Below are positions 3,938 through 43,194 of a stretch of DNA of 64,000 bases, piece after piece. How positions within the stretch are numbered: the stretch's first letter is position 1; each line of letters starts with the position of its first letter. Under the pieces are notes generated by a model. The model did not search any database, had not been told where the DNA came from, and worked only from the letters and a program-made list of their open reading frames with translations. Position numbers and translations under genes: made by a program. Source of the stretch: Malacoraja senta (lineage: Eukaryota); NCBI GenBank assembly GCA_038087875.1, contig CM075988.1:22694001-22758000 (forward strand). The letters are read 5' to 3'.

Positions 3938-5230
3938 TTAAATGATCAAAGTTGCCTGGTTGCACATAATTACTAGCATTGTTTTCAAATTATCTGGTGT
4001 TAAACTATGCCGTCTGTCAGACAGAATATTTTTCAGTTGTGAAAAACTTCTTTCTACCTCAGCTGAGGTCACTGGTGCATACCTGAAACAAGCTACCGAC
4101 TCTATATTCATGTTGATATCTTGTGCATTACAACTACCTTTGAGAACTTTGGATATGTTTTGTATTTCTTCAAGATCTTCATTAGCTAAAACCACTCTCA
4201 CACATTTTCCTTGTATGTCTTTACCTACATCGCCAGGAATTTTAAGAATATCGTCAGTTACTTTGTTGAAAACCTGCAAGTTATTCACTAATATTTTGCC
4301 ACGTTTCTCAAGGGAAGTGATAGCTTGTGGGAAATTTGCAAAATTGGAAGCAATAAACACAAGATCGCGGTGGAGGGACTTTTTCTGCATGATTTCACTG
4401 ATGATCCTGACTGCAGCAGATTCTTCTTCAAATCAGTTGACAATTTCTTTTTTTTCAAAATTTGCAGCATAGTAGAGTACAGCAGAGAGCCATGTACCCC
4501 ACCTAGTCAAAACGGGCTGAGGAGGTAGCGGAATCTCGGGTGCCATTTCCTTGAACAACTGCACACGTGACGGTGGTTTGAGGAAGATTTTCTTGACATT
4601 GGAAACTAGGCAATAAGCTACGTATGTGCTTGGCAATTTTTTTTTCTCCAAAATTTTAGGATGTGCTTGGCAATTCTATGAAGTCCTTGAGCTAAGCATG
4701 TCAAATGCAACATTTTGGGAAATAAAACTTTAAGAGCACGAGCAGCATTTTTCATGTACGGAGCTGCATCAGTCACAAACAAAAGAACATTCTCATGTTT
4801 CATACCTTCTGGCCAAAGTACAGCAATTGAAGATGTAAACAACTGAGCAATAGTTGAGCTGTTTGACTTCTCCAATACTTCCGATGTCAACAAATACTCC
4901 TTTGAAGGTTGACCTGCCCCCAGTGTACCGATGACCGCATTGGTAACATATCTCCCGACAGCATCGGTTGTCTCGTCTATTGAAATCCATATTTTGTTGC
5001 ATGTAACTTCATCTCTAATTTTCTACACAACAATGTTGAAGTTGCTGTCAACATAATTTTTCCACAATGATGACTCGCTTGGTATATATTCCTCCAAGTA
5101 TTTATCTAAAAATCCTCTGAGATTTGTTTTCCAATTTCCACAGTGGAATTCCAGCATCAATGAATGCCTTGCACAGATCACTCAAACTCAGATTTGCAAC
5201 TGGAGCCAGCAATTAATGCAGTGAGGAGAC
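3938..5230 (-). pseudogene. Frameshifted hAT transposase (CGGBP1/DUF659-like clade)
   Basis: Motifs [40 protein letters not shown] and YAPVTSAEVERSFS are spread over several frames. Confidence 0.85.
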
Positions 5231-12448: not shown

Positions 12449-12654
12449 TGTAAATCACTTCAAAGCATATAAGATTTACACACATCTTTAATCAGCACAT
12501 TAACTTGGCAGCATTACAGAGCGAGGTGTTGTCAGTTCATCCTGGCTGCTTCAACTAACGGTGCTGGGAATGGGCGTTAGTATAAATGTTATAATGGGGT
12601 GGAGTTAGTGATGCTAGCTAAGTGTGATTGATTCACATGCATCATCAATCTACA
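12449..12654 (-). repeat. 3' LTR (206 bp)
   Basis: Direct repeat of 13598-13803; I found one mismatch. Adjacent to the PPT. Confidence 0.95.
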
Positions 12655-12681
12655 TCCTTCCCCCTAAAGATTAAAAGCATA

Positions 12682-13531
12682 TTAAACATACTCGCCATAC
12701 CTGTCTGGTGGTCTACTAACACGGCCCGAACGCGTGCGGACCCAACCATCCCCTCCCTCAACTGAAGGATGAGGCGGAGAGGCTGAAGGTGAAAACCGCA
12801 CGGGAGAGGATTGTGGTGACTGAGGGGGGAAACATGCGGTGGGTGAAACCCCGTGGTTAGTGGAGACAGATGGACGTGGGGGAGTGCCAGGCATGCGGGG
12901 ACGGGCGGGAGACATTGCGGAAGGCGGCTGGAACTGGAGCGGCGGAGCATATGGATCGGCAGGCGGCGGTCGGGGCTCCTTCACAGCAAGCAGGTGTTGA
13001 CGACTTCTCCGGTAAACCGCTCCCTCACAGTCCACAAGGTACGATCGCGACTCATCAGTCGGGCGCACAACTACGACCAGACGAGAATGACCAGTTGGAG
13101 TTCGTAGACGGACGACCTGGCCCGGCAGTAGAGGCTGGAGTGGTCTGCTGGAACTGTCGTATGACCGTTTCTGGGTATCGTGCTTCTCTTGGAGACGTTG
13201 CTGGATAGTGGCGGGCTTCAACACCCGAAGAACCAGCTGCTGTTGTGCGATGGGGACCGGAGACCTCGTCACCCTTGACAGCAGCCGCTGTGCTGGTGAC
13301 CCCAAGATTCCGTCTCTTGCAATGTTTCTGAGATTCAGTAGATCGAGATAGACGTCAGACTTTGAAATGCGCGCTCCCTCCAGCAAGTGCTTGGCGCTTC
13401 TGACAGCGCGTTCAACGAGTCCATTACTCTGTGGATACTCGGGACTGCTTGTGACATGCTGGAAGTTCCATCGGTCGGCGAAAAGCTTGAACAAGTGGCT
13501 GGTGAACTGTGGACCATTGTCGGTTCTCAGA
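12682..13531 (-). pseudogene. Truncated Gypsy integrase (second D and E of DDE plus C-terminal domain), uninterrupted frame
   Basis: LRTDNGPQF..HVTSSPEYPQSNGLVERAV..SPAQRL..YRRSRQHL..RTRSGRVSRPPDRY. The zinc finger and first D are absent. Confidence 0.9.
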
Positions 13532-13582
13532 ATAATGGCTGATAATTCTCAGAAAACCGTTATACAAGAGGAGTGGGTAGGA

Positions 13583-13597
13583 CCACTTCTGACACCA
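13583..13597 (-). promoter_or_regulatory. Primer-binding site, complementary to a tRNA-Leu 3' end
   Basis: TGGTGTCAGAAGTGG lies immediately after the 5' LTR and complements the recalled tRNA-Leu(CAA) end ...CCACTTCTGACACCA. Confidence 0.8.
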
Positions 13598-13803
13598 TGT
13601 AAATCACTTCAAAGCATATAAGATTTACACACATCTTTAATCAGCACATTAACTTGGCAGCATTACAGAGCGAGGTGTTGTCAGTTCATCCTGGCTGCTT
13701 CAACTAACGGTGCTGGGAATAGGCGTTAGTATAAATGTTATAATGGGGTGGAGTTAGTGATGCTAGCTAAGTGTGATTGATTCACATGCATCATCAATCT
13801 ACA
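13598..13803 (-). repeat. 5' LTR (206 bp)
   Basis: Direct repeat of 12449-12654; adjacent to the PBS. Confidence 0.95.
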
Positions 13804-19892: not shown

Positions 19893-20130
19893 CAATAGAC
19901 AATAGGTGCAGGAGTAGGCCATTCGGCCCTTCGAGCCAGCACCGCCATTCAATGTGATCATGACTGATCATCCCCAATCAGTACCCCGTTCCTGCCTTCT
20001 CGCCATATCCCCTGACTCCGCTATCTTTAAGAGCCCTATCGAGCTCTCTTGAAAGAATCCAGAGAACTGGTCTCCACCGCCCTCCGAGGCAGGGAATTCC
20101 ACAGACTCACAACTCTCTGTGTGAAAAAGA
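19893..20130 (-). mobile_element. CR1 LINE 3' end
   Basis: Reverse complement of 15120-15347. Confidence 0.9.
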
Positions 20131-20195
20131 CTCTCTGTGTGAACACCAGAGATTAGTCTCAAAATTAGACCCTATTGAGACTGAAGTTAGGAGTT

Positions 20196-20624
20196 GTATT
20201 AAAAGTATAACAGCAAAATAGCTGTAGCATAGCTACTAGATTACTACCGCATACCTCCAACAAACTGGATTCAATCCTTGCCTCTGGAGCTGTCTGAATT
20301 CATTTAGCATGTTCTCACTATGACCAGATGCCCTTGTTTATTTCCATATCCCAAAGATGTATGGGTTGGTGTGTTAACCAGCCACTAACCACATCTAAAT
20401 TGCCACTAAAATGGAATCTGGGAGTGGGAGTTGATGGGATTGTGAAGAGAATAAAATGGGATTATTTTCAATGGGTGCTTGATGGTGCAGACTCGGTGTG
20501 GCAAAGGCCCCATTTCCTTACTGTATAACTCTTGACCATAACGGTTTCCACAGTTGAAGTGGAAATAAAGGTTTAGAAGCTGCTGTCATGAGCAGCAATT
20601 GATACAATGTCAAATTAATAATTT
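20196..20624. repeat. 429-bp direct repeat, copy 1 (includes an old tRNA-SINE at about 20215-20530)
   Basis: Matches 22696-23124 at an offset of 2500, with about 5 substitutions by eye. Confidence 0.95.
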
Positions 20625-22695
20625 ATTTATTATTTTTTATTTTTTAAATTTTTTTATTTATTAGAAGTACATTACATTACAACCACATACATTAGTACTC
20701 GTCACTTATGTCTTCTTACAATTAATGTACTCCATTTGTTTTTTACACTAGTAAAAGGAAAGGATAAGATTGAAAGAAAGAAGAAAATGAAGGAAAAAGT
20801 GAGAGTGTAGAAAATGTGACAACAAAAAAGGACGAAGACCCTATAAGAACAAAATTAAAAACAAACAAAAAAGAGTTAAGAAATAGACCCTAGAAAAGAA
20901 GGAGAAAGAGAAAGAGGAAAAAGAGAGAAACAAATATTTTTTATGAGCATTACGCAAATAGGACATACCAACTCTTCAACTATCATCCCCCATTACCTGA
21001 CCTCAATTTTTTTAAGGTACCTTTGCACCCTATATTTGTAATAATTCTATAAATGCAGACCACGTCAGGTGGAAGTGATCTGGTTTACCTGCTAGGAGGA
21101 GTCTTATCTCTTCTAGGTGTAATGTTTAGAACATATTTGAAATCCACGTTTATAGTTGGTATTGGAGCCTTCTTCCAAAATTTTAGGATTAGCTTTTTTC
21201 CAGTTATTAACCCATAGTCTATTAGTTTCTTTTGAAACACATTTAGTTCTGGACCATCTTCCGTTATTCCGAAGATAATCCATTCTGCTTTGGGTATCAG
21301 TTTTATTTTAAATAATTTTGTAAAGATTTCAAAAATTTCATTCCAAGATTTTTGAATTTTTGTACAGAAAACAAATGAGTGCGCTATAGTAGCTTCTTGG
21401 GATTGACATTTATCACAAATAGATGATACATTTGGGAAAATGTTATGGATTTTAGTTTTGGAATAATATAATCTATGTAAAATTTTAAATTGTATTAAAG
21501 TGTGTCTTACATTAATCGAACATTTATGCACGTTTAATAAGTGTTCATTCCAACTTTCCTTTGAAATTTTAATAGTTAACTCTTGTTCCCAGTCTCTTCT
21601 GATACCCTCCGTAGATGGTATTTCTACATTTAAGATAATATTATACAAATATGATATTAAGTTTGATGATTCAGCTTTTATCTGCATTGCCTCATCCAAT
21701 ACATCTGCTGGGTTATTATAATGATCTTTTGTATCTTTTTTCAAATAGTCGCATATTTGAAAATATTTAAAATATTGATTATTTCCGAGTTTATATTTTA
21801 TTTGTAATTGTTGAAATGAAAGTAATTTTCCAGTTTCATACAAGTCACCGAACGTTTTAATTCCTAGTCTATCCCAATGTGTAAAAGCTTTATCTATAAT
21901 AGAGGAATTAAACGAAGGGTTATTAACTATGGGTAATAAAAGTGATAAATTTCTTAATTTTAAATTTTGTTTTATTTGTTTCCAAATTCGGATTGTGCTA
22001 TGAATAATTGGGTTCTTATTATAATTTATATTATTCAGTTTCATTGGAGAGAGGAGGATCGCTCCAATGTTTCCAGAGGAGCAATCCTATTTCTCCATTA
22101 CAATCGAGTCCACTTGCTGGGCGGAGTTATCCATCAGTTGAATCATATTTTTAATATTTACTGACCAATAATAATACATAAAATTAGGTAGTGCTAAACC
22201 CCCTAATACTTTAGATTTATTCAGATGAGTTTTTTGTATTCTATGTGATTTATAGTCCCATATAAAATTAGTGATATCTGAGTCGAGTTTTAAAAAAAAC
22301 TTCTTTGGTAAGTATATAGGAATCGATTGAAATAGGTATAAAATTTGTGGTAGAAAGATCATTTTTATTGCATTTATTCGGCCTATTAAAGACATCGGGA
22401 GCGTTTTCTAGAATTTAATTAGTGTGTTTAATTTATTAAGTAGGGGATCAAAATTTGCCTTAAACATACCTTGATATGTTCTAGTAATTTCGATTCCCAA
22501 GTATTTAAATTTTTCTGTAGCTATTTTAAAAGGGAATTTTAAAAGATGTGTTGAATCTTTCGGTTTTATTGACATAATTTCACTTTTATTCCAATTTATT
22601 CTATATCCAGAAAAAGATCCAAAGTCTTCAATTAAATTTAATATATTTGGTATAGTGATTTGAGGTTTTGTAATGTACAGTAATATATCATCCGC
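20625..22695 (-). mobile_element. 5'-truncated L1 LINE (ORF2 from YADD to the CCHC knuckle, 3' UTR, A-rich tail)
   Basis: Minus strand shows (Y)ADDILLY, SGYRINWNKS, FKYLGI, GGLALPNF, QFKILHRLY and CDKC..HSFVFC. A-rich tail at 20625-20660; several frameshifts. Confidence 0.92.
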
Positions 22696-23124
22696 GTATT
22701 AAAAGTATAACAGCAAAATAGCTGTAGCATAGCTACTAGATTACTACCTCATACCTCCAACAAACTGGATTCAATCCTTGCCTCTGGAGCTGTCTGAATT
22801 GATTTAGCATGTTCTCACTATGACCAGATGCCCTTGTTTATTTCCATATCCCAAAGATGAATGGGTTGGTGTGTTAACCAGCCACTAACCACATCTAAAT
22901 TGCCACTAAGATGGAATCTGGGAGTGGGAGTTGATGGGATTGTGAAGAGAATAAAATGGGATTATTTTCAATGGGTGCTTGATGGTGCAGACTCGGTGTG
23001 GCAAAGGCCCCATTTCCTTACTGTACAACTCTTGACCATAACGGTTTCCACAGTTGAAGTGGAAATAAAGGTTTAGAAGCTGCTGTCATGAGCAGCAATT
23101 GATACAATGTCAAATTAATAATTT
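22696..23124. repeat. 429-bp direct repeat, copy 2
   Basis: Matches 20196-20624. Confidence 0.95.
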
Positions 23125-24197
23125 CAAATAGAAAATTAATGGATTAAGGAAATGGGGAAACAGTTATATAGAGTTAGATCAGAAATTAGACATGATTTTG
23201 TTGATAGAATAGGATGGAGAAATAAATGGACTGTTCCCATTTTGGGTGTTGGTTACTGTTGAAGAATCAAAGCCTGTAAATGTGACAATTATTACCAGAT
23301 CTTAATCCAGAGAAAAAATAGCTATGGTAATTTGAAAGATTAAAATTATGATGTATTTACTACAGGGCATGTTAGAACACTACTTATTAAGTTGTGTTGA
23401 AGCAAACTATTAGTTAAGTTTCTGACTCATCAGACTAAGTGGCTGAAAATAATTAGTCATCTTTTTGTCAGCTGAAGTTGCCACAAGATGACTCGTTCTT
23501 ACTGAAATTTACACAAGAGGCTATTTGTGCATTGTTATTGGACAAAAATGAAAGTATTCAGTTAACTTCCCAGTGCATTTTGGGACATCATAAACTTCAC
23601 AGATGTTGCTCTGTAGCCTTACACAGCATGGCTCTTCAGATGTGCTTTCAGTAACTTTTAAATATGATGAGCATTTCTACTTCCACTAATCCTTCAGAAG
23701 GCAAGTTTCAAAATTCCAAATCTTAAATGAAAATTTTCCTGATCTGGCTCCTTATCGCCATGTTCCTTAATTATGAAGCACTACCAAGGGAAATAAATCC
23801 TGTTCATGATTTCTGATCTTACCCTAATTTTGTACACCTGAATTAAATCTTCCTTCATTCTGCAATGCCTCAAATAAATATCTAGTCTCTGCTAATAGAA
23901 ATTCTCCAGCCAGCCTATATTTTTGTGATTCTCCATTGCATTTTTTTCTATAGAGTTATAAAAAATTGTTGCACTCTAGTCTTAGAGTCCCAAACCATTG
24001 AAAAAAGATTAATTATCTACCATATCTATGCCTTCATAATCTGATAATCACCCCAAGCCACCTATGCTCCAGAGAGAATATATCCAGCATTTCCAATCTC
24101 TTGTAACTAAAATCTGTTCCAAACAACATCCTGGTGAATTTCATCTTCATTCTTCACTCTTTTAGAAACACACACTTCCTGCAGTGTGGCGAAGAAA

Positions 24198-24946
24198 CTA
24201 CCTCATCTGTGAAACATGGTGGTGGGGGTGTTAAGACCTGGGCATGTATGGCTGCTGAAGGTACTGGCTCACTTATCTTCATTGATGATACAACTGCTGA
24301 TGGTAGTAGCATAATGAATTCTGAAGTGTATAGACACATCCTATCTGGTCAAGTTCAAACAAATGCCTCAAAACTCATTGGCCGGTGGTTCATTCTACAG
24401 CAAGACAATGATCCCAAACATACTTCTAAAGAAACAAAGGAATTTTTCCAAAATGGCCAATTCTTGAGTGGCCAAGTCAATCACCTGATCTGAACCCAAT
24501 TGAGCATGCCTTTTATATGCTGAAGAGAAAACTGAAGGGGACTAGTCCCCAAAACAAGCATAAGCTAAATTTGGCTGCAATACAGGCCTGGCAAAGCATC
24601 ACCAGAGAAGACACCCAGCAACTGGTGATGCCCATGAATCGCAAACTTCAAGCAGTCATTGCATTCAAAGGATATGCAACAAAATACTAAACATGACTAC
24701 TTTCATTTACAGGACATTGCTGTGTCCCAAACATTATGGTGCCCTGAAATTTGGGGACGATGTATAAACACTGCTGTAATTTCTACATGGTGAAACCAAA
24801 ATGTATAGAAATTGCCTTTATTAAAATCTGATAATGTGCACTTTAACCACATGTGATTTTTTTTCTATTACAAATCTCAAATTGTGGAGTACAGAGGCAA
24901 ATAAATAAATGATGGGCCTTTGTCCCAAACATTATGGAGGGCACTG
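24198..24946 (+). mobile_element. Tc1 transposon 3' half (same family as 41377-43001)
   Basis: SVKHGGGG..WACM and ILQQDNDPKH motifs; right TIR ...CCCAAACATTATGGAGGGCACTG. Confidence 0.9.
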
Positions 24947-26211
24947 TGTGCCTTACACAAGTGACCATTATTCAAGCCTGAGTGCAGGCTGTGTTGGCAG
25001 CCTGAAGGCATCGCAGCTCAGCCTGGTTGCCTTCACTAAATTGCATGTATGATTCTAATTGAGCTCACAAGATAAAGATCAGGAGTAGAACCGCTGACTC
25101 ATTTTCCCCTTCTTGTCCCAAGATTGTTGATGTATTTGTGGCATGCTACCATCATCCTGCCCAAGATCAGTTATCTCATCACAGTTATGCAGTAGAACCT
25201 GACAACTTCCTGTTCAGCTGCTGTGACAGAGTAACTTTGAAGTTTGTATTCGTGCTTTTTTTTTTGGAAGTTGAGGCACATTGTTATAATCTTTATTGTT
25301 TGAAAGTTATATCTGCCATCCCTAATAATAATGGCTAGTTATTAAAACTGATTGCTGCAAAATGAAATGGGATAACCATTCTTGGTTTCTATTGGATGAC
25401 TCGTATGTAAAGTGAAGCGGGGGAGTATATCAATGTTCACCTGAGCAAATCATGATTTTAAAATGTGCATATATCTCAGTACTGTTACATGGCCATTTCA
25501 AGTTAGATTTAATCAGTTCCAAAACATCAGTTGCGAATCTTTATGCATCTTGAATGAGACAGATTTATCATTATGAGAGATAATTACGGTAAAATTTTGT
25601 CCCAATTTAAAAACAAAATGCAGAGGATATGATTGCTGAAATTCAAATCGTGAGATAATACACTTTATTTTTACAGTGAATCTTGGCAAAAGTGTCACAT
25701 AAAATGCCAAGGAGAATAATTCACGGCTGGTTTAAATTTCTGACTTGAAGTCTCTAAATTTTATACATTTATCAAGACACCACCCTTAACCCTTTCCTTC
25801 AACTTTTTTTAAAAATTCCCCTTCTTTATTAATTGCACTCGCCTTTTCTGATGAGAATTCTGGTTTTAGTGAAATTTACAATATTTCCAAAATATCATAA
25901 CAGAGTATATGGGACATCACATTACTACCCCTGTTTGTTGAGGATGGCAACAAAAGTCCTTTATAGCACTGAACACATTTGTCTTCTGGTGAATTCAATA
26001 AAACTAACAGTAGATTTAGAGGAGAGAAGGATTAGATTAGTTTATATAAAAATGAATGTTCCCATGTTTTTATTGATGTAAGAAGTCAATTACTAGATTC
26101 ATACGATTTACATTATTTAATTGGTATGCCAAATCCTGTAATTGATTTATAAGAGTACATTTTAAAAACATTGGGGCAGATTTCTGCTGAAGCATAGCAT
26201 CTAAAGACTTC

Positions 26212-27135: not shown

Positions 27136-27272
27136 TACAGTGGCTTGCAAAAGTATTTATACCCCTTGAACCTTTCCACATTTTGTCACGTTACAACCAC
27201 AAACGTAAATGTATTTTATTGGGATTTTATGTGATAAACCAACACAAAGTGGCGCATAATTGTGAGGTGGAA

Positions 27273-28150
27273 TTGTGAGGTTCCATCGGGGGCGCCGTTG
27301 AGTATGGCTGCCCTGCCAGCAGCTGTTAGTCTTTTCAACCTTTAAAAAAAAAATTTAGTTAGTTAAAAGTGTTTTGTTTGGAGGTCTTTTAGTCTTTTTA
27401 TGTGGGGGGGGGAAGGGGGAACTATTTTTCTCAGTCCCTACCTGGTCGGAGATGCGGTTTTTCTCCGAGCCGTATCTTCGCCCCTTCCTCACGGCCTACG
27501 GGCAGACTGGAGCGGCGTTTTCCTGCCGGGACCGGCCAGGACTTCAGCTTCGGCAGCGGCACAGCGCTGAAGCACCATCGCGGAGCGGGCGATGCCTTAC
27601 CCGGGTCGCCGTGCAGCAAGCTCCGGAGTGCTGTGACCGCCGGCACCAACATCGCGGAGCTGCGGTCTGCGGTCTGCGGTCTGCGGAGCTTCCAGCCGCG
27701 GGCGGCGCTGAACCTTAAACACCGCGGAGCCTGGGATCTCACGACGAGGTCGCCAGAGTCGGAGCATCGACCAGCGCGGCTCGCGGACTTCGGTAGCCGC
27801 GGTCTCCTGGGAGGAAGTGGCCGCTCCAGACACTCCGGGCCGCTGAGAGTGTTCACCCGACGCCAGAGCTCCATCATCCGGCGAGAGGGCCTGAAGCATC
27901 GGGCTGCCGTAGCGGCGACTGCAGAGGCCTCAATAGGCCCCGACTATGGGTGAACTGGGGATGGGACTGGACTTTGCTGCCTTCCCCCACAGTGGGAACC
28001 ATTGTGGGGGGATGTTTTTATGTTTATTGTTAAATTCTGCTAAATTCTTTAATGTTGTGTATTATCTTTATTCATGTGCTGCATTGGCAAGTCGAATTTC
28101 ACTACACCAATTGGTGTATGTGACAATAAATGTCTCTAATCTAAAAAAAA
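27273..28150 (+). mobile_element. CpG-rich non-autonomous retroposon with a Rex/Babar-like tail (copy A)
   Basis: Splits the Tc1 IR with a TGGAA duplication. Head GGGGGCGCC..GGCTGCCCTGCCAGCAGC; tail GGCAAGT..TTTCACT..GTGACAATAAA plus an A-run. Colinear with 30516-31526. Confidence 0.8.
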
Positions 28151-28400
28151 TGGAAGGAAAATGATACATGGTTTTCAAATTTTTTTTACAAATAAAAAAC
28201 TGAAAAGTGTCGAGTGCAAAAGTATTCAGCCCCCTTTACTCTGATACCCCTAAATAAAATCCAGTGCAACCAATTGCCTTCAGAAGTCACCTAATTAGTA
28301 AATAGAGTCCACTTGTGTATAATCTAATCTCAGTATAAATACAGCTGTTCTGTGAAGGCCTCAGAGGTTTGTTAGAGAACATTAGTGAACAAACAGCATC

Positions 28401-29408
28401 ATGAAGCCCAAGGAACACACCAAACAGGTCAGGGATAAAGTTGTGGAGAAGTTTAAAGCAGGGTTAGGTTATAAAAAAATATCCCAAGCTTTGAACATCT
28501 CACGGAGCACTGTTCAATCCATCATCCGAAAATGGAAAGAGTATGGCACAACTGCAAACCTACCAAGACATGGCCGTCCACCTAAACTGACAGGCCGGGC
28601 AAGGAGAGCATTGATCAGAGAAGCAGCCAAGAGGCCCATGGTAACTCTGGAGGAGCTGCAGAGATCCACAGCTCAGGTGGGAGAATCTGGACAACTATTA
28701 GTCGTGCACTCCACAAATCGGGCCTTTATGGAAGAGTGGCAAGAAGAAAGCCATTGTTGAAAAAAAGCCATAAGAAGTCCCGTTTGCAGTTTGCCACAAG
28801 CCATGTGGGGGACACAGCAAACATGTGGAGGAAGGTGCTCTGGTCAGATGAGACCAAAATTGAAGTTTTTGGCCTAAATGCAAAACACTATGTGTGGCGG
28901 AAACCTAACACTGCACATCACCCTGAACACACCATCCCCACTGTGAAACATGGTGGTGGCAGCATCATGCTGTGGGGATACTTTTCTCCAGCAGGGACAG
29001 GGAAGCTGGTCAGAGTTGAAGGGAAGATGGATGCAGCCAAATACAGGGCAATCTTGGAAGAAAACCTGTTAGAGTTTGCAAAAGACTTGAGACTGGGGTG
29101 GAGGTTCACCTTCCAGCAGGACAACAACCCTAAACATACAGCCAGAGCTACAATGGAATGGTTTAGATCAAAGCATATTCATGTGTTAGAATGGCCAAAG
29201 TCCAGACGTAAATCCAATTGAGAATCTCTGCCAAGACTTGAAAATTGCTGTTCACAGACGCTCTCCATCCAATCTGACTGAGCTTGAGCTATTTTGCAAA
29301 GAAGAATGGGCAAAAATTTCAGTCTCTAGATGTGCAAAGCTGCTGGAGACATACCCCAAAAGACTTGCAGCTGTAATTGCAGCGAAAGGTGGTTCTACAA
29401 AGTATTGA
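28401..29408 (+). pseudogene. Tc1 transposase, frameshifted
   Basis: [32 protein letters not shown] and NPIE motifs across three frames. Confidence 0.93.
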
Positions 29409-30515
29409 CTCGGGGGCTGAATACTTTTGCACGCGACACTTTTCAGTTTTTTATTTGTAAAAAAATTTGAAAACCATGTATCCTTCCACTTCACAATTAT
29501 GCACCACTTTGTGTTGGTCTATCACATAAAATCCCAATAAAATACATTTACGTTTGTGGTTGTAACGTGACAAAATGTGGAAAAGTTCAAGGGGTATGAA
29601 AACTTTTGCAAGCCACTGTATAATCAGACATCTGCCATCCATCCGAAGTAGTTGCACTGTTTGCTGTTTTATTTCACAGGTGGAGGAGTTAAAAATCAAA
29701 ATGCATGTTTCAGACCCCCATGATAGCTAGGCATATGGAACAGAGCTGCAGTGGATGTGAAGTGTAGTATTTGAACATGCATAGTTAGCTTCATTTAAAA
29801 GGAGCTGACATCCTAACCTAGTTTTTTTTTCAAGACTGAAGTAACATTTTTTGGGAATGTTGGAATGACTTCTGAATCTGAATGCAGATTGGTTCTTTTG
29901 GGAGTAATATTTAGAAAAAGGCCGGGATTTTATGATGTGTGAACCTTTACACAATGCAAGAGTAATTCTTCAACTGACATGATGAATGATAGAAAGTAAC
30001 CTTGAATTTTTCATTTTTTGCTGAATTTAAGAAAATCCTTTGTGCTATATTTTAGGGCTCACCCTCGAAGATTGGAGATTTGTAGAATCAACTTATATAA
30101 TAATTAATCAGTTCTCTGTAGTACAAGCCTAATACTGAATTGTTTCTTTAGTTTCTCCCCTGATAAACTCCCTGATCTAATTTTGTTTGTAGAATTCACC
30201 TCTTGTTGCCTTGACCGATAAAGATCTGAAAAATCCTTACTGCACATGGTCACAATTGAACAGATGAGAGTGAGGATAGTTGAACTGACCTAGAAAATGG
30301 AAGAGTGACATTAGAGAAAGATGGGGTAGTCAGGCTTTAAAAATAAATATTGCACTGGAAACCAGCATCTGTTCTGTGGTGCATCTTGTGTGGTTTAACC
30401 ACAAAGGTGTAAAGTAGCATTTTAATACCTTTTTAAATAATTATTTAAATCAGGTAATGCTGTTTAGTGTCCATTTGCATATGGGGATTGCACATGGGAA
30501 TTTCTGGAATTTACT

Positions 30516-37529: not shown

Positions 37530-39043
37530 TTGTATTGTATTGTATATCTTTATTGTCATTTCCTGAGTATTCGCATACCCAGAGGAAACAAAAAAACGTT
37601 CCTCAACCAGTGTCCATTCCAGTGTGCAGTAAAAAATAAATAGAAGCGAAAATACATATATCATGAACAAATTAACACTCTACTAAACATCAACAGGCGT
37701 TCCGATCGGCAGCGGCACGACAGTGGCTCTGCTGCAGTGTGTCCAGGTTGGTGGTTGGTGCACGATACTTTGGCAGGGGACAAAGTCCGTTTATCAGTCT
37801 TATAACCTGCGGGAAGAAGCTGAGGAGCATCCTGCTGGTTTTGCACCTAATGCTCCGGTACCTCTTCCCAGATGGCAGGATGGAGAATATGTGATGCGAT
37901 GGGTGGTAGGGGTCTTTGATGATGGAGATGGCTCTGCTGATACATCTCTTCCTGTATATGTCCAGCAGGAAAGGGAGTGGAGCACCAATAATCCTGCTGG
38001 CGGTCTTCACAATCCTGTCTAGTTGGTGCCGTTCGTACGCCTTGCAGCTCCCGAACCAGGAAGTGATGCCGTAGGTTAATGTGCTCTCGATTGTCCCCCT
38101 ATAAAAAGTTCGTAGGTGTGTAGTGGGGAGACCTGCTTTACGTAGTCTTCGGAGAGGGTGTAGTCGCTGCTGGGCTCTCTTGACCAGTGCTGTGGTGTTG
38201 GTCGTGGACGTCAGGTCATCTGACAGGTGGAGTCCTAGGAACTTCACGCTGTTGACCCTTTCCACATCAGCTCCATCGATGTGCAGAGGTGTATAGTGTT
38301 GTTTTCCCGCCCTCCTGAAGTCAACCACCATCTCCTTAGTTTTTCCCACATTGAGAATGAGGTTGTGGGATTTGCACCATCCTGTGAGCAGCTCCACCTC
38401 CATCCTGTACGCCGACTCATCATTGTCACTGATGAGACCCACCACTGTTGTGTCATCAGCGAACTTGTTGATGAAGTTGTTGTTGAGTCTAGCAGTACAG
38501 TCGTGTGTTAGCAGACTAAACAGCAGGGGGCTTAGGACACAGCCTTGGGGCGAGCCAGTGCTCACGGCTATGGTTTTTGATGTCCTACTGCCCACCCTGA
38601 CTGTCTGCTGCCGTTGCGATAGAAAGTTCAGGACCCAGTTACATGTGCCAGCATCAACCCCCAATAGCTCCAACTTCTCCACCAGCTGCTGCGGAATGAT
38701 TGTATTAAAAGCAGAGCTGAAGTCTATGAAGAGGATCCTGGCATAAGTATTTTTCCGATCAAGGTGTGACAGTACGAGGTTCAGTGTTGTTGAGACTGCG
38801 TCCTCTGTGGATCGGTTGGCTCTGTAGGCGAACTGCAGTGGGTCTAGGTCAGCAGGTAGACTATTTTTGATATGCTGCATAACCAGTCGCTCAAAACACT
38901 TCATTACTATGGGTGTTAGAGCCACTGGTCGAAAGTCATTATGGCAGGCTGGGTTTGGTTTCTTCGGGACAGGGACGATGGTGGCACTCTTAAGACAGTT
39001 GGGCACTACTGCCTGGCTGAGTGAGATGTTAAAAATGTCTGTG
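37530..39043 (-). mobile_element. 5'-truncated Rex1/Babar-type LINE, young
   Basis: Long intact RT ORF, then a 3' UTR with AATAAA and a (TACAA)n tail. Confidence 0.92.
37690..39042 (-). CDS. LINE reverse transcriptase ORF, uninterrupted but N-terminally truncated (no endonuclease)
   Basis: About 450 codons with [45 protein letters not shown] and KFLG. Confidence 0.85.
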
Positions 39044-39114
39044 ATTCCAAAATAGTAGTCTTTGCAGTATTGAATTTGATCAGCAGTATGTATTTGTAAT
39101 TGTTAATGCCTAAC

Positions 39115-41376: not shown

Positions 41377-43001
41377 CAGTGAGTGCACTCCATAATATTT
41401 GGGACAAAGATCCATCATTTATTTATTTGCCTCTGTACTCCACAATTTGAGATTTGTAATAGAAAAAATCACACGTGGTTGAAGTGCACATTGTCAGATT
41501 TTATCAAAGGGTATTTTTATACATTTTGCTTTCACCATGTAGAAATTACAGCTGTGTTTATACATAGTCCCCCCCCATTTCAGGGCATCATAATGTTTGG
41601 GACACATGGCTTCACAGGTGTTTGTAATTGCTCAGGTGTGTTTAAATGCCTCCTTAATGCAGGTTTCAGAGAGCTCTCAGCACCTAGTCTTTCCTCCAGT
41701 CTTTCCATCACCTTTGGAAACTTTTATTGCTGTTTATCAACATGAGGACCAAAGTTGTGTCAATGAAAGTCAAAGAAGCCATTATGAGACTGAGAAACAA
41801 GAATAAAACTGTTAGAGACATCAGCCAAACCTTAGATTTACCAAAATCAACGGTTTGGAACATCATTAAGAAGAAAGAGAGCACTGGTGAGCTTGTTAGT
41901 CGCAAAGGGACTGGCATGCCAAGGAAGACCTCCACAACTGATGACAGAAGAATTCTCTCTTTAATAAAGAAAAATCCCCAAACACCTGGCCGACAGATTA
42001 GAAACACACTTCAGGACTCAGATGTGCATTTGTCAATGACCACTGTCCGCAGAAGACTTCATGAACAGAAATACAGAGGCTGCACTGCAAGATGCAAACT
42101 ACTGGTTAGCCGCAAAAATAGGATGACCACATTACAGTTTGCCAAGAAGTACTTAAAAGAGCGACCACAGCTCTGGAAAAAGATCTTGTAGACAGATGAG
42201 ACGAAGATGAACTTACATCAGAGTGATGGCAAGAGCAAAGTATGGAGGAGAGAAGGAACTGCCCAAGATCCAAAGCATACCACCTCATCTGTGAAACATG
42301 GTGGTGGGGGTATTATGGTCTGGGCATGTATGACTGCTGAAGGTACTGGCTCACTTATCTTCATTGATGATACAACTGCTGATGGTGGTAGCATAATGAA
42401 TTCTGAAGTGTATAGACACATCCTATCTGCTCAAGTTCAAACAAATGCTTCAAAACTCATTGGCCAGCGGTTCATTCTGCAGCAAGACAATGATCCAAAA
42501 CATACTGCTAAAGCAACAAAGGAGTTTTTCAAAGCTAAAAAATGGTAAATTCTTGAGTAGCCAAGTCAATCACCCGATCTGAACCCAATTGAGCATGTCT
42601 TTTATATGCTGAAGAGAAGACTGAAGGGTACTAGCCCCCAAGCATAAGCTAAAGATGGCTGCAATACAGGCCTGGCAGAGCATCACCAGAGAAGACACTC
42701 GGCAACTGGTGATGTCCATGAATCGCAGACTTCAAGCAGTCATTGCATGCAAAGGATATGCAACAAAATACTAAACACAACTACTTCCATTTACATGACA
42801 TTGCTGTGTCCCAAACATTACGATGCCCTGAAAAGGGGGGACAAAAACCCCTAAAATGTATAAAAATGGCCTTTATTAAAATCTGACAACGTGCGCTTTA
42901 ACCACATGTGATTTATTTTCTATTACAAATCTCAAATTGTGGAGTACAGAGGCAAATAAGTAAATGACGGGTCTTTGTCCCAAACATTATGGAGGGCACT
43001 G
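41377..43001 (+). mobile_element. Full-length Tc1 transposon (IR/DR type), defective
   Basis: TA|CAGTG(AGTG)CACTCCATAAT...ATTATGGAGGGCACTG with IRs of about 200 bp containing inner CATAATGTTTGGGACA repeats. Confidence 0.93.
41742..42774 (+). pseudogene. Tc1 transposase with in-frame stops
   Basis: KSTVWNIIKK, TDETK, VKHGGGGIMVW, LQQDNDPKH and SPDLNPIE; stops at about 42189, 42546 and 42558. Confidence 0.92.
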
Positions 43002-43194
43002 TGATAAATGTAATTTTTCCAATCCCTAATTATTAAATTTGATTTGACAATGTTTCTATTAAACAACATGTTAAGTCAGATTGCGCTATGTTAAACACAC
43101 TATATAAACAGTTTATCATTGCAGTTAATGAGTTGCAGTTTCCTCCATCTAAATTTGGGAACATAGAAGCTATGATCCTTGGTGTGAAATGGAC

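What the first reader, a model, noticed from the sequence alone, without database searches (positions are those of the whole stretch)
20196..23124. L1 insertion flanked by a 429-bp direct duplication (giant target-site duplication?)
Seen: 20196-20624 and 22696-23124 are colinear copies with about 5 substitutions, and they abut both ends of a 2071-bp minus-strand L1. The A-rich tail joins ...ATAATTT. The 5' truncation falls at the YADD motif, where the Tyr codon overlaps the repeat edge (possible microhomology). Known: L1 TSDs are normally about 7-20 bp. Inference: second-strand cleavage far from the first nick, or insertion coupled to replication or repair, created a retrotransposition-driven duplication. 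The roughly 1% divergence would date it.
Basis: partly seen in the sequence, partly recalled or inferred. Interest (0 to 1): 0.72.

Follow-up and report, generated by a model that had tools for sequence, protein, structure and literature searches.

The report
L1 insertion with 429-bp flank duplication
A young, shortened jumping gene (L1) in what is probably a ray or skate genome sits between two near-identical 429-base copies of ordinary host DNA, most likely an unusually large insertion-site duplication of a kind already seen in cultured cells and other organisms, but not yet confirmed here by sequencing reads.

Summary
Observation confirmed. 20196-20624 and 22696-23124 match at 424 of 429 bases without gaps and abut a 2071-bp minus-strand insert. 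The insert is the 3' part of an L1-clade ORF2 whose homology starts exactly at the Tyr of YADD, inside the right copy, followed by a 3' UTR and an A-rich tail. This is the geometry of target-primed insertion with a far-off second break and a 3-4 nt microhomology join. The L1 looks young (CpG o/e 0.78; 2 missense in 137 conserved columns), but it has four premature stops and a frameshift, more than 5 differences in 429 bp predict (stops alone P 0.004-0.01; combined P 0.06-0.09). An LTR reading failed. The decisive tests (junctions in reads, empty allele, family survey) were not achieved, so an artefact or a two-step origin stays open. Large L1 TSDs are known from HeLa, NER-deficient cells and cancers, and heritable long TSDs from Dualen, R9 and HERV-K. 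Verdict: probably a natural germline example of a known rare outcome; modest interest.

The parts
20196..20624 (+). Left copy of the 429-bp duplicated host segment; its end abuts the L1 tail (inferred first-nick side)
20265..20528 (+). Old, decayed SINE-like repeat inside the duplicated unit (same in the right copy at 22765-23025); shows the unit is ordinary host DNA
   Evidence: nhmmer with 4 window repeat copies, E 5e-15 and 6e-14; CpG o/e 0.08; the SINE label is from recall
20625..20663 (-). A-rich 3' tail of the L1, 39 nt of A/T only, interrupted by T
   Evidence: sequence
20664..21011 (-). L1 3' UTR, T-rich on the element's strand
   Evidence: follows the stop that aligns with relatives' C-termini; composition
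21012..22698 (-). 3' part of L1 ORF2, from the YADD motif through the CCHC motif to the natural stop; premature stops at 22410, 22089, 21128, 21032 and a frameshift near 21150
   Evidence: Pfam RVT_1 E 4e-9; 50% over 515 aa without gaps to P0001, which matches human ORF2p full length, E 5e-180; stops; CCHC
22696..22699 (-). Inferred 3-4 nt microhomology at the 5' junction (Tyr codon, plus one base if the preceding Leu codon ends in A)
   Evidence: Leu precedes the motif in 41 of 46 relatives; TTA or CTA are 38 of 57 Leu codons in this ORF
22696..23124 (+). Right copy of the 429-bp duplicated segment; its start abuts the L1 5' truncation

Best explanation
One retrotransposition event made both the insert and the duplication. 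The plus strand was nicked at the right end of the 429-bp segment (reconstructed site ATTT/CA) and its T-rich 3' end primed reverse transcription on the L1 RNA tail. Reverse transcription stopped after about 2.07 kb at the YADD codons. The cDNA end was then joined through 3-4 nt of microhomology to a point 429 bp upstream, either because the other strand broke there (distant second nick) or because the other end was extended by break-induced or replication-coupled synthesis. Fill-in gave two copies, which have since gathered 5 differences. Shown: the geometry, the L1 identity, the tail and the junction overlap. Inferred: the nick, the priming, simultaneity, and the single-copy empty site. The two sub-routes cannot be told apart from sequence.
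For: Both L1 ends coincide exactly with the copy boundaries, with no lost or extra bases. The tail lies at the copy end that would serve as primer, and the 5' truncation at the start of the other copy. The in-frame Tyr overlap has chance about 0.05. No alternative short TSD of 7 nt or more was found. The L1 is young by CpG (24 seen, 30.6 expected, o/e 0.78, against 0.06 in the right flank and 0.85 in a young LTR element nearby) and by missense at conserved columns (2 of 137, d about 0.7%, CI 0.1-2.7%, against 0.58% per copy, CI 0.19-1.36%). No N at the junctions. Precedent: TSDs over 100 bp in up to 10% of HeLa L1 insertions, median 1495 bp in NER-deficient cells, with cleavage sites such as TTTT/c and ATTT/t (PMC5223499); very long TSDs go with 5'-truncated L1 in HeLa (PMC2912911).
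Against: Four premature stops and a frameshift in about 560 codons. Stops alone give d 4-5% (conditional P 0.004-0.01 against 5 differences in 858 bp; with 3 stops P 0.02-0.04). Stops plus conserved missense give d 1.5-1.8% (P 0.06-0.09). The stop-only test was chosen after seeing the stops. This needs a defective source RNA, gene conversion between the copies, or bad luck. The nick site ATTT/CA is not the mammalian TTTT/AA consensus. No read, contig or orthologue supports the junctions. No family member closer than 83% amino-acid identity was found, so the microhomology is inferred from codons.
Confidence: 0.68

Rival explanations
1. Two steps. An older, longer L1 insertion with an ordinary short TSD came first. 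Later a replication or repair template switch left the L1 at YADD and resumed, through the same microhomology, 429 bp upstream on an L1-free homologue. This removed the L1's 5' part and made the second copy from another allele.
For: The L1 has more stops than the copies' divergence predicts. Microhomology is equally expected from a template switch.
Against: It needs two rare events at one spot while the L1 was still polymorphic. Copies taken from two alleles would start out different, which makes the event even younger than 0.58%. CpG content and conserved missense say the L1 is young.
Confidence: 0.13
2. Assembly artefact: a filled and an empty haplotype were joined, so the 5 differences are allelic.
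For: A short near-identical direct repeat around a repeat element is a classic haplotype-merging pattern (general knowledge). No read evidence was obtained.
Against: No N or gap. The join falls exactly at an L1 5' truncation with an in-frame 3-4 nt overlap, whereas assemblers join on long overlaps (inference). A filled haplotype would then need another 5' junction, and none is present: no further L1 piece lies in the window.
Confidence: 0.09
3. A tandem duplication made by break repair, with a piece of L1 DNA or cDNA captured as filler at the junction without endonuclease-primed insertion.
For: Imperfect nick motif. A decayed donor copy would explain the stops.
Against: The insert ends exactly at the element's natural A-rich 3' end on a T-rich target, which a random filler would rarely do.
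Confidence: 0.06
4. A pre-existing tandem pair into whose junction the L1 inserted, or the two copies are LTRs of an element that captured an L1 piece.
For: The outermost bases read TG at 20195-20196 and CA at 23125-23126.
Against: Landing exactly on the junction has chance about 1 in 858, and would also need no TSD. The inner ends lack TG and CA, there is no 4-6 bp outer TSD, no primer-binding site is apparent on either strand, and the unit contains an old SINE-like repeat.
Confidence: 0.04

Closest known systems
Large-TSD L1 insertions in human cell culture (Servant et al. 2017, PMC5223499; Gilbert 2002/2005 and Symer 2002 as cited there)
   Same: 5'-truncated L1 with an A tail between direct copies of hundreds of bases; loose nick motifs; explained by a distant second nick
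   Different: Those are engineered or somatic events, enriched in NER-deficient cells. This one is an aged, apparently inherited copy in a cartilaginous fish, with 1.2% divergence between the copies.
L1-associated 1-10 kb tandem duplications in RPE-1 clones and cancers (bioRxiv 10.1101/2024.12.14.628481)
   Same: Duplication flanking a TPRT insertion, regarded as a large TSD; break-induced replication proposed
   Different: Somatic, human, larger
Dualen-4b_cRei of Chlamydomonas (PMC9977147) and R9 of rotifers (126 bp, as cited there)
   Same: Heritable non-LTR insertions flanked by long target duplications (Dualen median 900 bp)
   Different: There it is a family-wide habit of other clades (Dualen has two endonucleases). 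Here it is one L1-clade event, and the family's usual TSD length is unknown.
ZfL2-2 long TSD of 1228 bp in DT40 cells (PMC2666801); HERV-K(HML-2) germline sites with 250- and 111-bp TSDs (PMC5488345)
   Same: Rare long TSDs from a fish LINE, and long TSDs fixed in a vertebrate germline
   Different: L2 clade in chicken cells; and an integrase-based element

Membership tests
L1-clade non-LTR retrotransposon | ORF2 RT domain most similar to L1 ORF2p | tested here: met
   RVT_1 C-terminal part; 50% over 515 aa without gaps to P0001, which matches human ORF2p over residues 13-1257, E 5e-180, against E 3e-23 for R2. Indirect; no tree was built, so L1 versus Tx1 subgroup was not tested formally.
L1-clade non-LTR retrotransposon | APE endonuclease and ORF1 | not testable with these tools
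   Lost by 5' truncation. Full-length relatives P0001-P0003 carry PF03372.
L1-clade non-LTR retrotransposon | C-terminal CCHC motif | tested here: met
L1-clade non-LTR retrotransposon | 3' UTR and A-rich tail | tested here: met
   the tail is interrupted, 29 A of 39
Canonical L1 insertion | Short TSD (about 5-30 bp) | tested here: not met
   No exact match of 7 nt or more between 20540-20624 and 22690-22790; the duplication is 429 bp
Canonical L1 insertion | TTTT/AA endonuclease site | tested here: inconclusive
   ATTT/CA; similar loose sites are listed in PMC5223499 tables; the preference of this family is unknown
Large-TSD TPRT insertion | Direct copies abut both element ends, tail at the primer end | tested here: met
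Large-TSD TPRT insertion | Empty site holds one copy | not tested
   No genome held; no reads were laid; metagenome scan 0 matches
Large-TSD TPRT insertion | Element and duplication of the same age | tested here: inconclusive
   Missense and CpG agree; stops do not
Large-TSD TPRT insertion | Junctions present in independent reads | not tested
   No read or contig alignment was obtained
LTR element (copies as LTRs) | TG...CA on both repeats, 4-6 bp outer TSD, primer-binding site | tested here: not met

The most novel reading that the evidence does not exclude
This cartilaginous-fish L1 family routinely resolves insertions with TSDs of hundreds of bases in the germline, as Dualen-4b does in Chlamydomonas. 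That would make it an overlooked source of small tandem duplications in shark and ray genomes, missed because TSD surveys stop at about 30 bp, and each copy would carry an LTR-like clock.
Probability: 0.08. Interest if true: 0.68.

Novelty: new member of a known kind. Interest (0 to 1): 0.36.

Why it matters
Very long L1 TSDs are known mainly from cell culture and tumours. Kojima 2010 (PMC2912911, passages) notes that they were put down to HeLa peculiarities, that his genome survey covered only 5-30 bp, and that longer TSDs in vivo still needed study. A read-confirmed, inherited 429-bp case in a non-mammalian vertebrate would be one data point that this outcome reaches the germline and persists. 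It would matter more only if a genome-wide survey showed it to be common. No host exon was identified in the duplicated unit, so no functional effect is indicated.

Tried and rejected
Genome-wide survey of the family: no genome is held. Reads across the junctions: none obtained, so artefact and empty allele stay open. Run search: 18 runs listed; 2 of 18 hold half the words or more (X16 0.81, X17 0.77; one study, and either may be the source sample). My arithmetic gives 0.40 for an empty allele alone, rising to about 0.85 or 0.74 if other family copies lie 0.6% or 1.5% away, so the shares do not tell filled from empty. Metagenome contigs: 0 matches to a pattern from the unit; 0 of 504 pattern hits confirmed as L1 relatives. 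Protein searches (70 proteins) found nothing above 83% identity, too far for a family consensus. Rfam: 0 matches in the window. LTR reading rejected. Short alternative TSD not found. Earlier findings: 6 look-ups; five were empty, and the 8 entries do not bear on this locus. Pfam on 9 further ORF pieces: 4 transposase-type hits, 5 without a family; no host gene identified. Gilbert 2005 is not held and is cited second-hand.

Full report
Observation. 20196-20624 and 22696-23124 match at 424 of 429 positions without gaps, and similarity ends sharply on both sides. The 5 differences are 3 transversions and 2 transitions. The copies enclose 2071 bp (20625-22695) with no other match in the window, and the window has no N. 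Among 7 direct pairs of at least 40 bp and 85% identity within 8 kb, this is the longest.

The insert. On the minus strand it encodes the end of a reverse transcriptase domain (Pfam RVT_1, E 4e-9) and the rest of ORF2, including a CCHC motif. It aligns without gaps over 515 residues at 50% to P0001, a full-length relative that matches human LINE-1 ORF2p end to end (E 5e-180). The closest named relative is a Leucoraja erinacea protein at 80%, the closest overall is P0019 at 83%, so the host is probably a cartilaginous fish. I built no tree. The natural stop at 21014-21012 lines up with relatives' C-termini. A T-rich 3' UTR follows, then a 39-nt A/T-only tail (29 A on the element's strand, counted) that touches the end of the left copy.

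Junctions. Four relatives that extend further upstream all begin aligning at 22698, the Tyr codon of YADD, whose three bases are also the first three of the right copy. A Tyr codon would arise there by chance about 5% of the time. Leu precedes the motif in 41 of 46 relatives, so the overlap is 3 or 4 nt and no more; this is inferred from codons, not from a family consensus. The reconstructed nick site is ATTT/CA: T-rich as a primer should be, but not the mammalian TTTT/AA. No shorter TSD of 7 nt or more was found under other boundaries. The duplicated unit is ordinary host DNA: it holds a decayed copy of a repeat found elsewhere in the window (E 5e-15; SINE label from recall), with CpG o/e 0.08.

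Age. The copies imply 0.58% per copy (CI 0.19-1.36%). The L1 retains its CpGs (24 seen, 30.6 expected), like the young LTR element nearby (0.85) and unlike the right flank (0.06). At 137 columns conserved among relatives it shows 2 missense changes and 1 stop; the missense give d about 0.7%. Against this, it has four premature stops (22410, 22089, 21128, 21032) and a frameshift near 21150. Stops alone give 4-5% (conditional P 0.004-0.01, a test chosen after seeing them; 0.02-0.04 if one stop is discounted), and stops plus missense give 1.5-1.8% (P 0.06-0.09). So equal age is not rejected but is not shown. A defective source RNA, gene conversion between the copies, or a two-step history could each explain the excess.

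Mechanism. The best reading (0.68) is one target-primed insertion: a nick at the right end of the unit, priming on the L1 tail, a stop at YADD, and microhomology joining to a point 429 bp upstream, through either a distant second nick or break-induced synthesis. Rivals: a later template switch onto an empty homologue that truncated an older L1 (0.13); haplotype-merging artefact (0.09); repair duplication with L1 filler (0.06); pre-existing tandem pair or LTR pair (0.04). The LTR reading was prompted by outer TG and CA, but the inner ends, outer TSD and primer site do not fit.

What could not be tested. No genome is held and no reads were laid on the locus, so the junctions, the empty allele and the family's TSD lengths are untested. 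Two of 18 listed runs hold 0.81 and 0.77 of the sampled words, but the arithmetic shows this cannot separate filled from empty alleles. Metagenome scans gave nothing.

Comparison with what is known. PMC5223499 (passages and Discussion): TSDs over 100 bp in up to 10% of HeLa events, median 1495 bp in NER-deficient cells, distant-nick model. bioRxiv 10.1101/2024.12.14.628481 (passages and section 12): 1-10 kb duplications treated as large TSDs, break-induced replication model. PMC2666801 (passages): 1 of 25 ZfL2-2 insertions in wild-type DT40 cells had a 1228-bp TSD. PMC9977147 (passages): Dualen TSDs of median 900 bp, and R9's 126 bp cited second-hand. PMC5488345 (abstract and outline): germline HERV-K sites with 250- and 111-bp TSDs. 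PMC2912911 (passages): genome survey limited to 5-30 bp, long TSDs in vivo left open. PMC12350158 and PMC12633430 (passages): human germline TSD medians of 21 and 15 bp. PMC13320814 (passages) traces L1 TSD length across vertebrates; I saw no values for cartilaginous fish and did not see its figures or supplements, which may bear on this. PMC8934628 and 10.1101/522623 (passages) added nothing. Ten searches and the 11 papers opened showed no natural vertebrate germline L1 with a TSD of hundreds of bases; the library lacks most subscription papers, so this is weak evidence of novelty.

Verdict. The feature is real in the sequence and is best read as a new instance of a known rare outcome of L1 insertion, possibly a useful inherited example outside mammals. 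It is a single event with no identified gene effect and no read support. Interest 0.36. If the family did this routinely (probability about 0.08), interest would be about 0.68.

Noticed in passing
window 12449-13803: Young, internally deleted LTR retrotransposon: 206-bp LTRs matching at 205 of 206, TG...CA ends, 5-bp TSD, a 288-codon open frame with a weak integrase-core match (E 4e-5, below the curated cut-off).
   Followed up: partly
window 27136-29620: Tc1-like element with 137-nt inverted arms (96%) that begin and end in TA; at 2.5 kb it includes a GC-rich stretch near 27350-27950 that may be an inserted repeat.
   Followed up: partly
window 37690-39102 (-): Uninterrupted 470-codon reverse transcriptase frame of another LINE type (RVT_1 E 3e-32 plus ALKBH8_N); no TSD of 9 nt or more in the flanks tested.
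   Followed up: partly
window 20112-20143: 14-bp direct repeat with a 4-bp spacer at the end of the repeat copy 19893-20129, about 50 bp left of the duplication; perhaps a slip or small target duplication.
   Followed up: no
window 24197-24948, 41382-43003: Related Tc1-like transposon copies, 87-90% identical.
   Followed up: no
window 3938-5022 (-): hAT transposase remnant (DUF659 and dimerisation domain).
   Followed up: no
window 21012-22698 (-): The L1 has 4 nonsense changes but only 2 missense at 137 conserved columns, an unexplained excess of stops for a CpG-rich young copy.
   Followed up: partly
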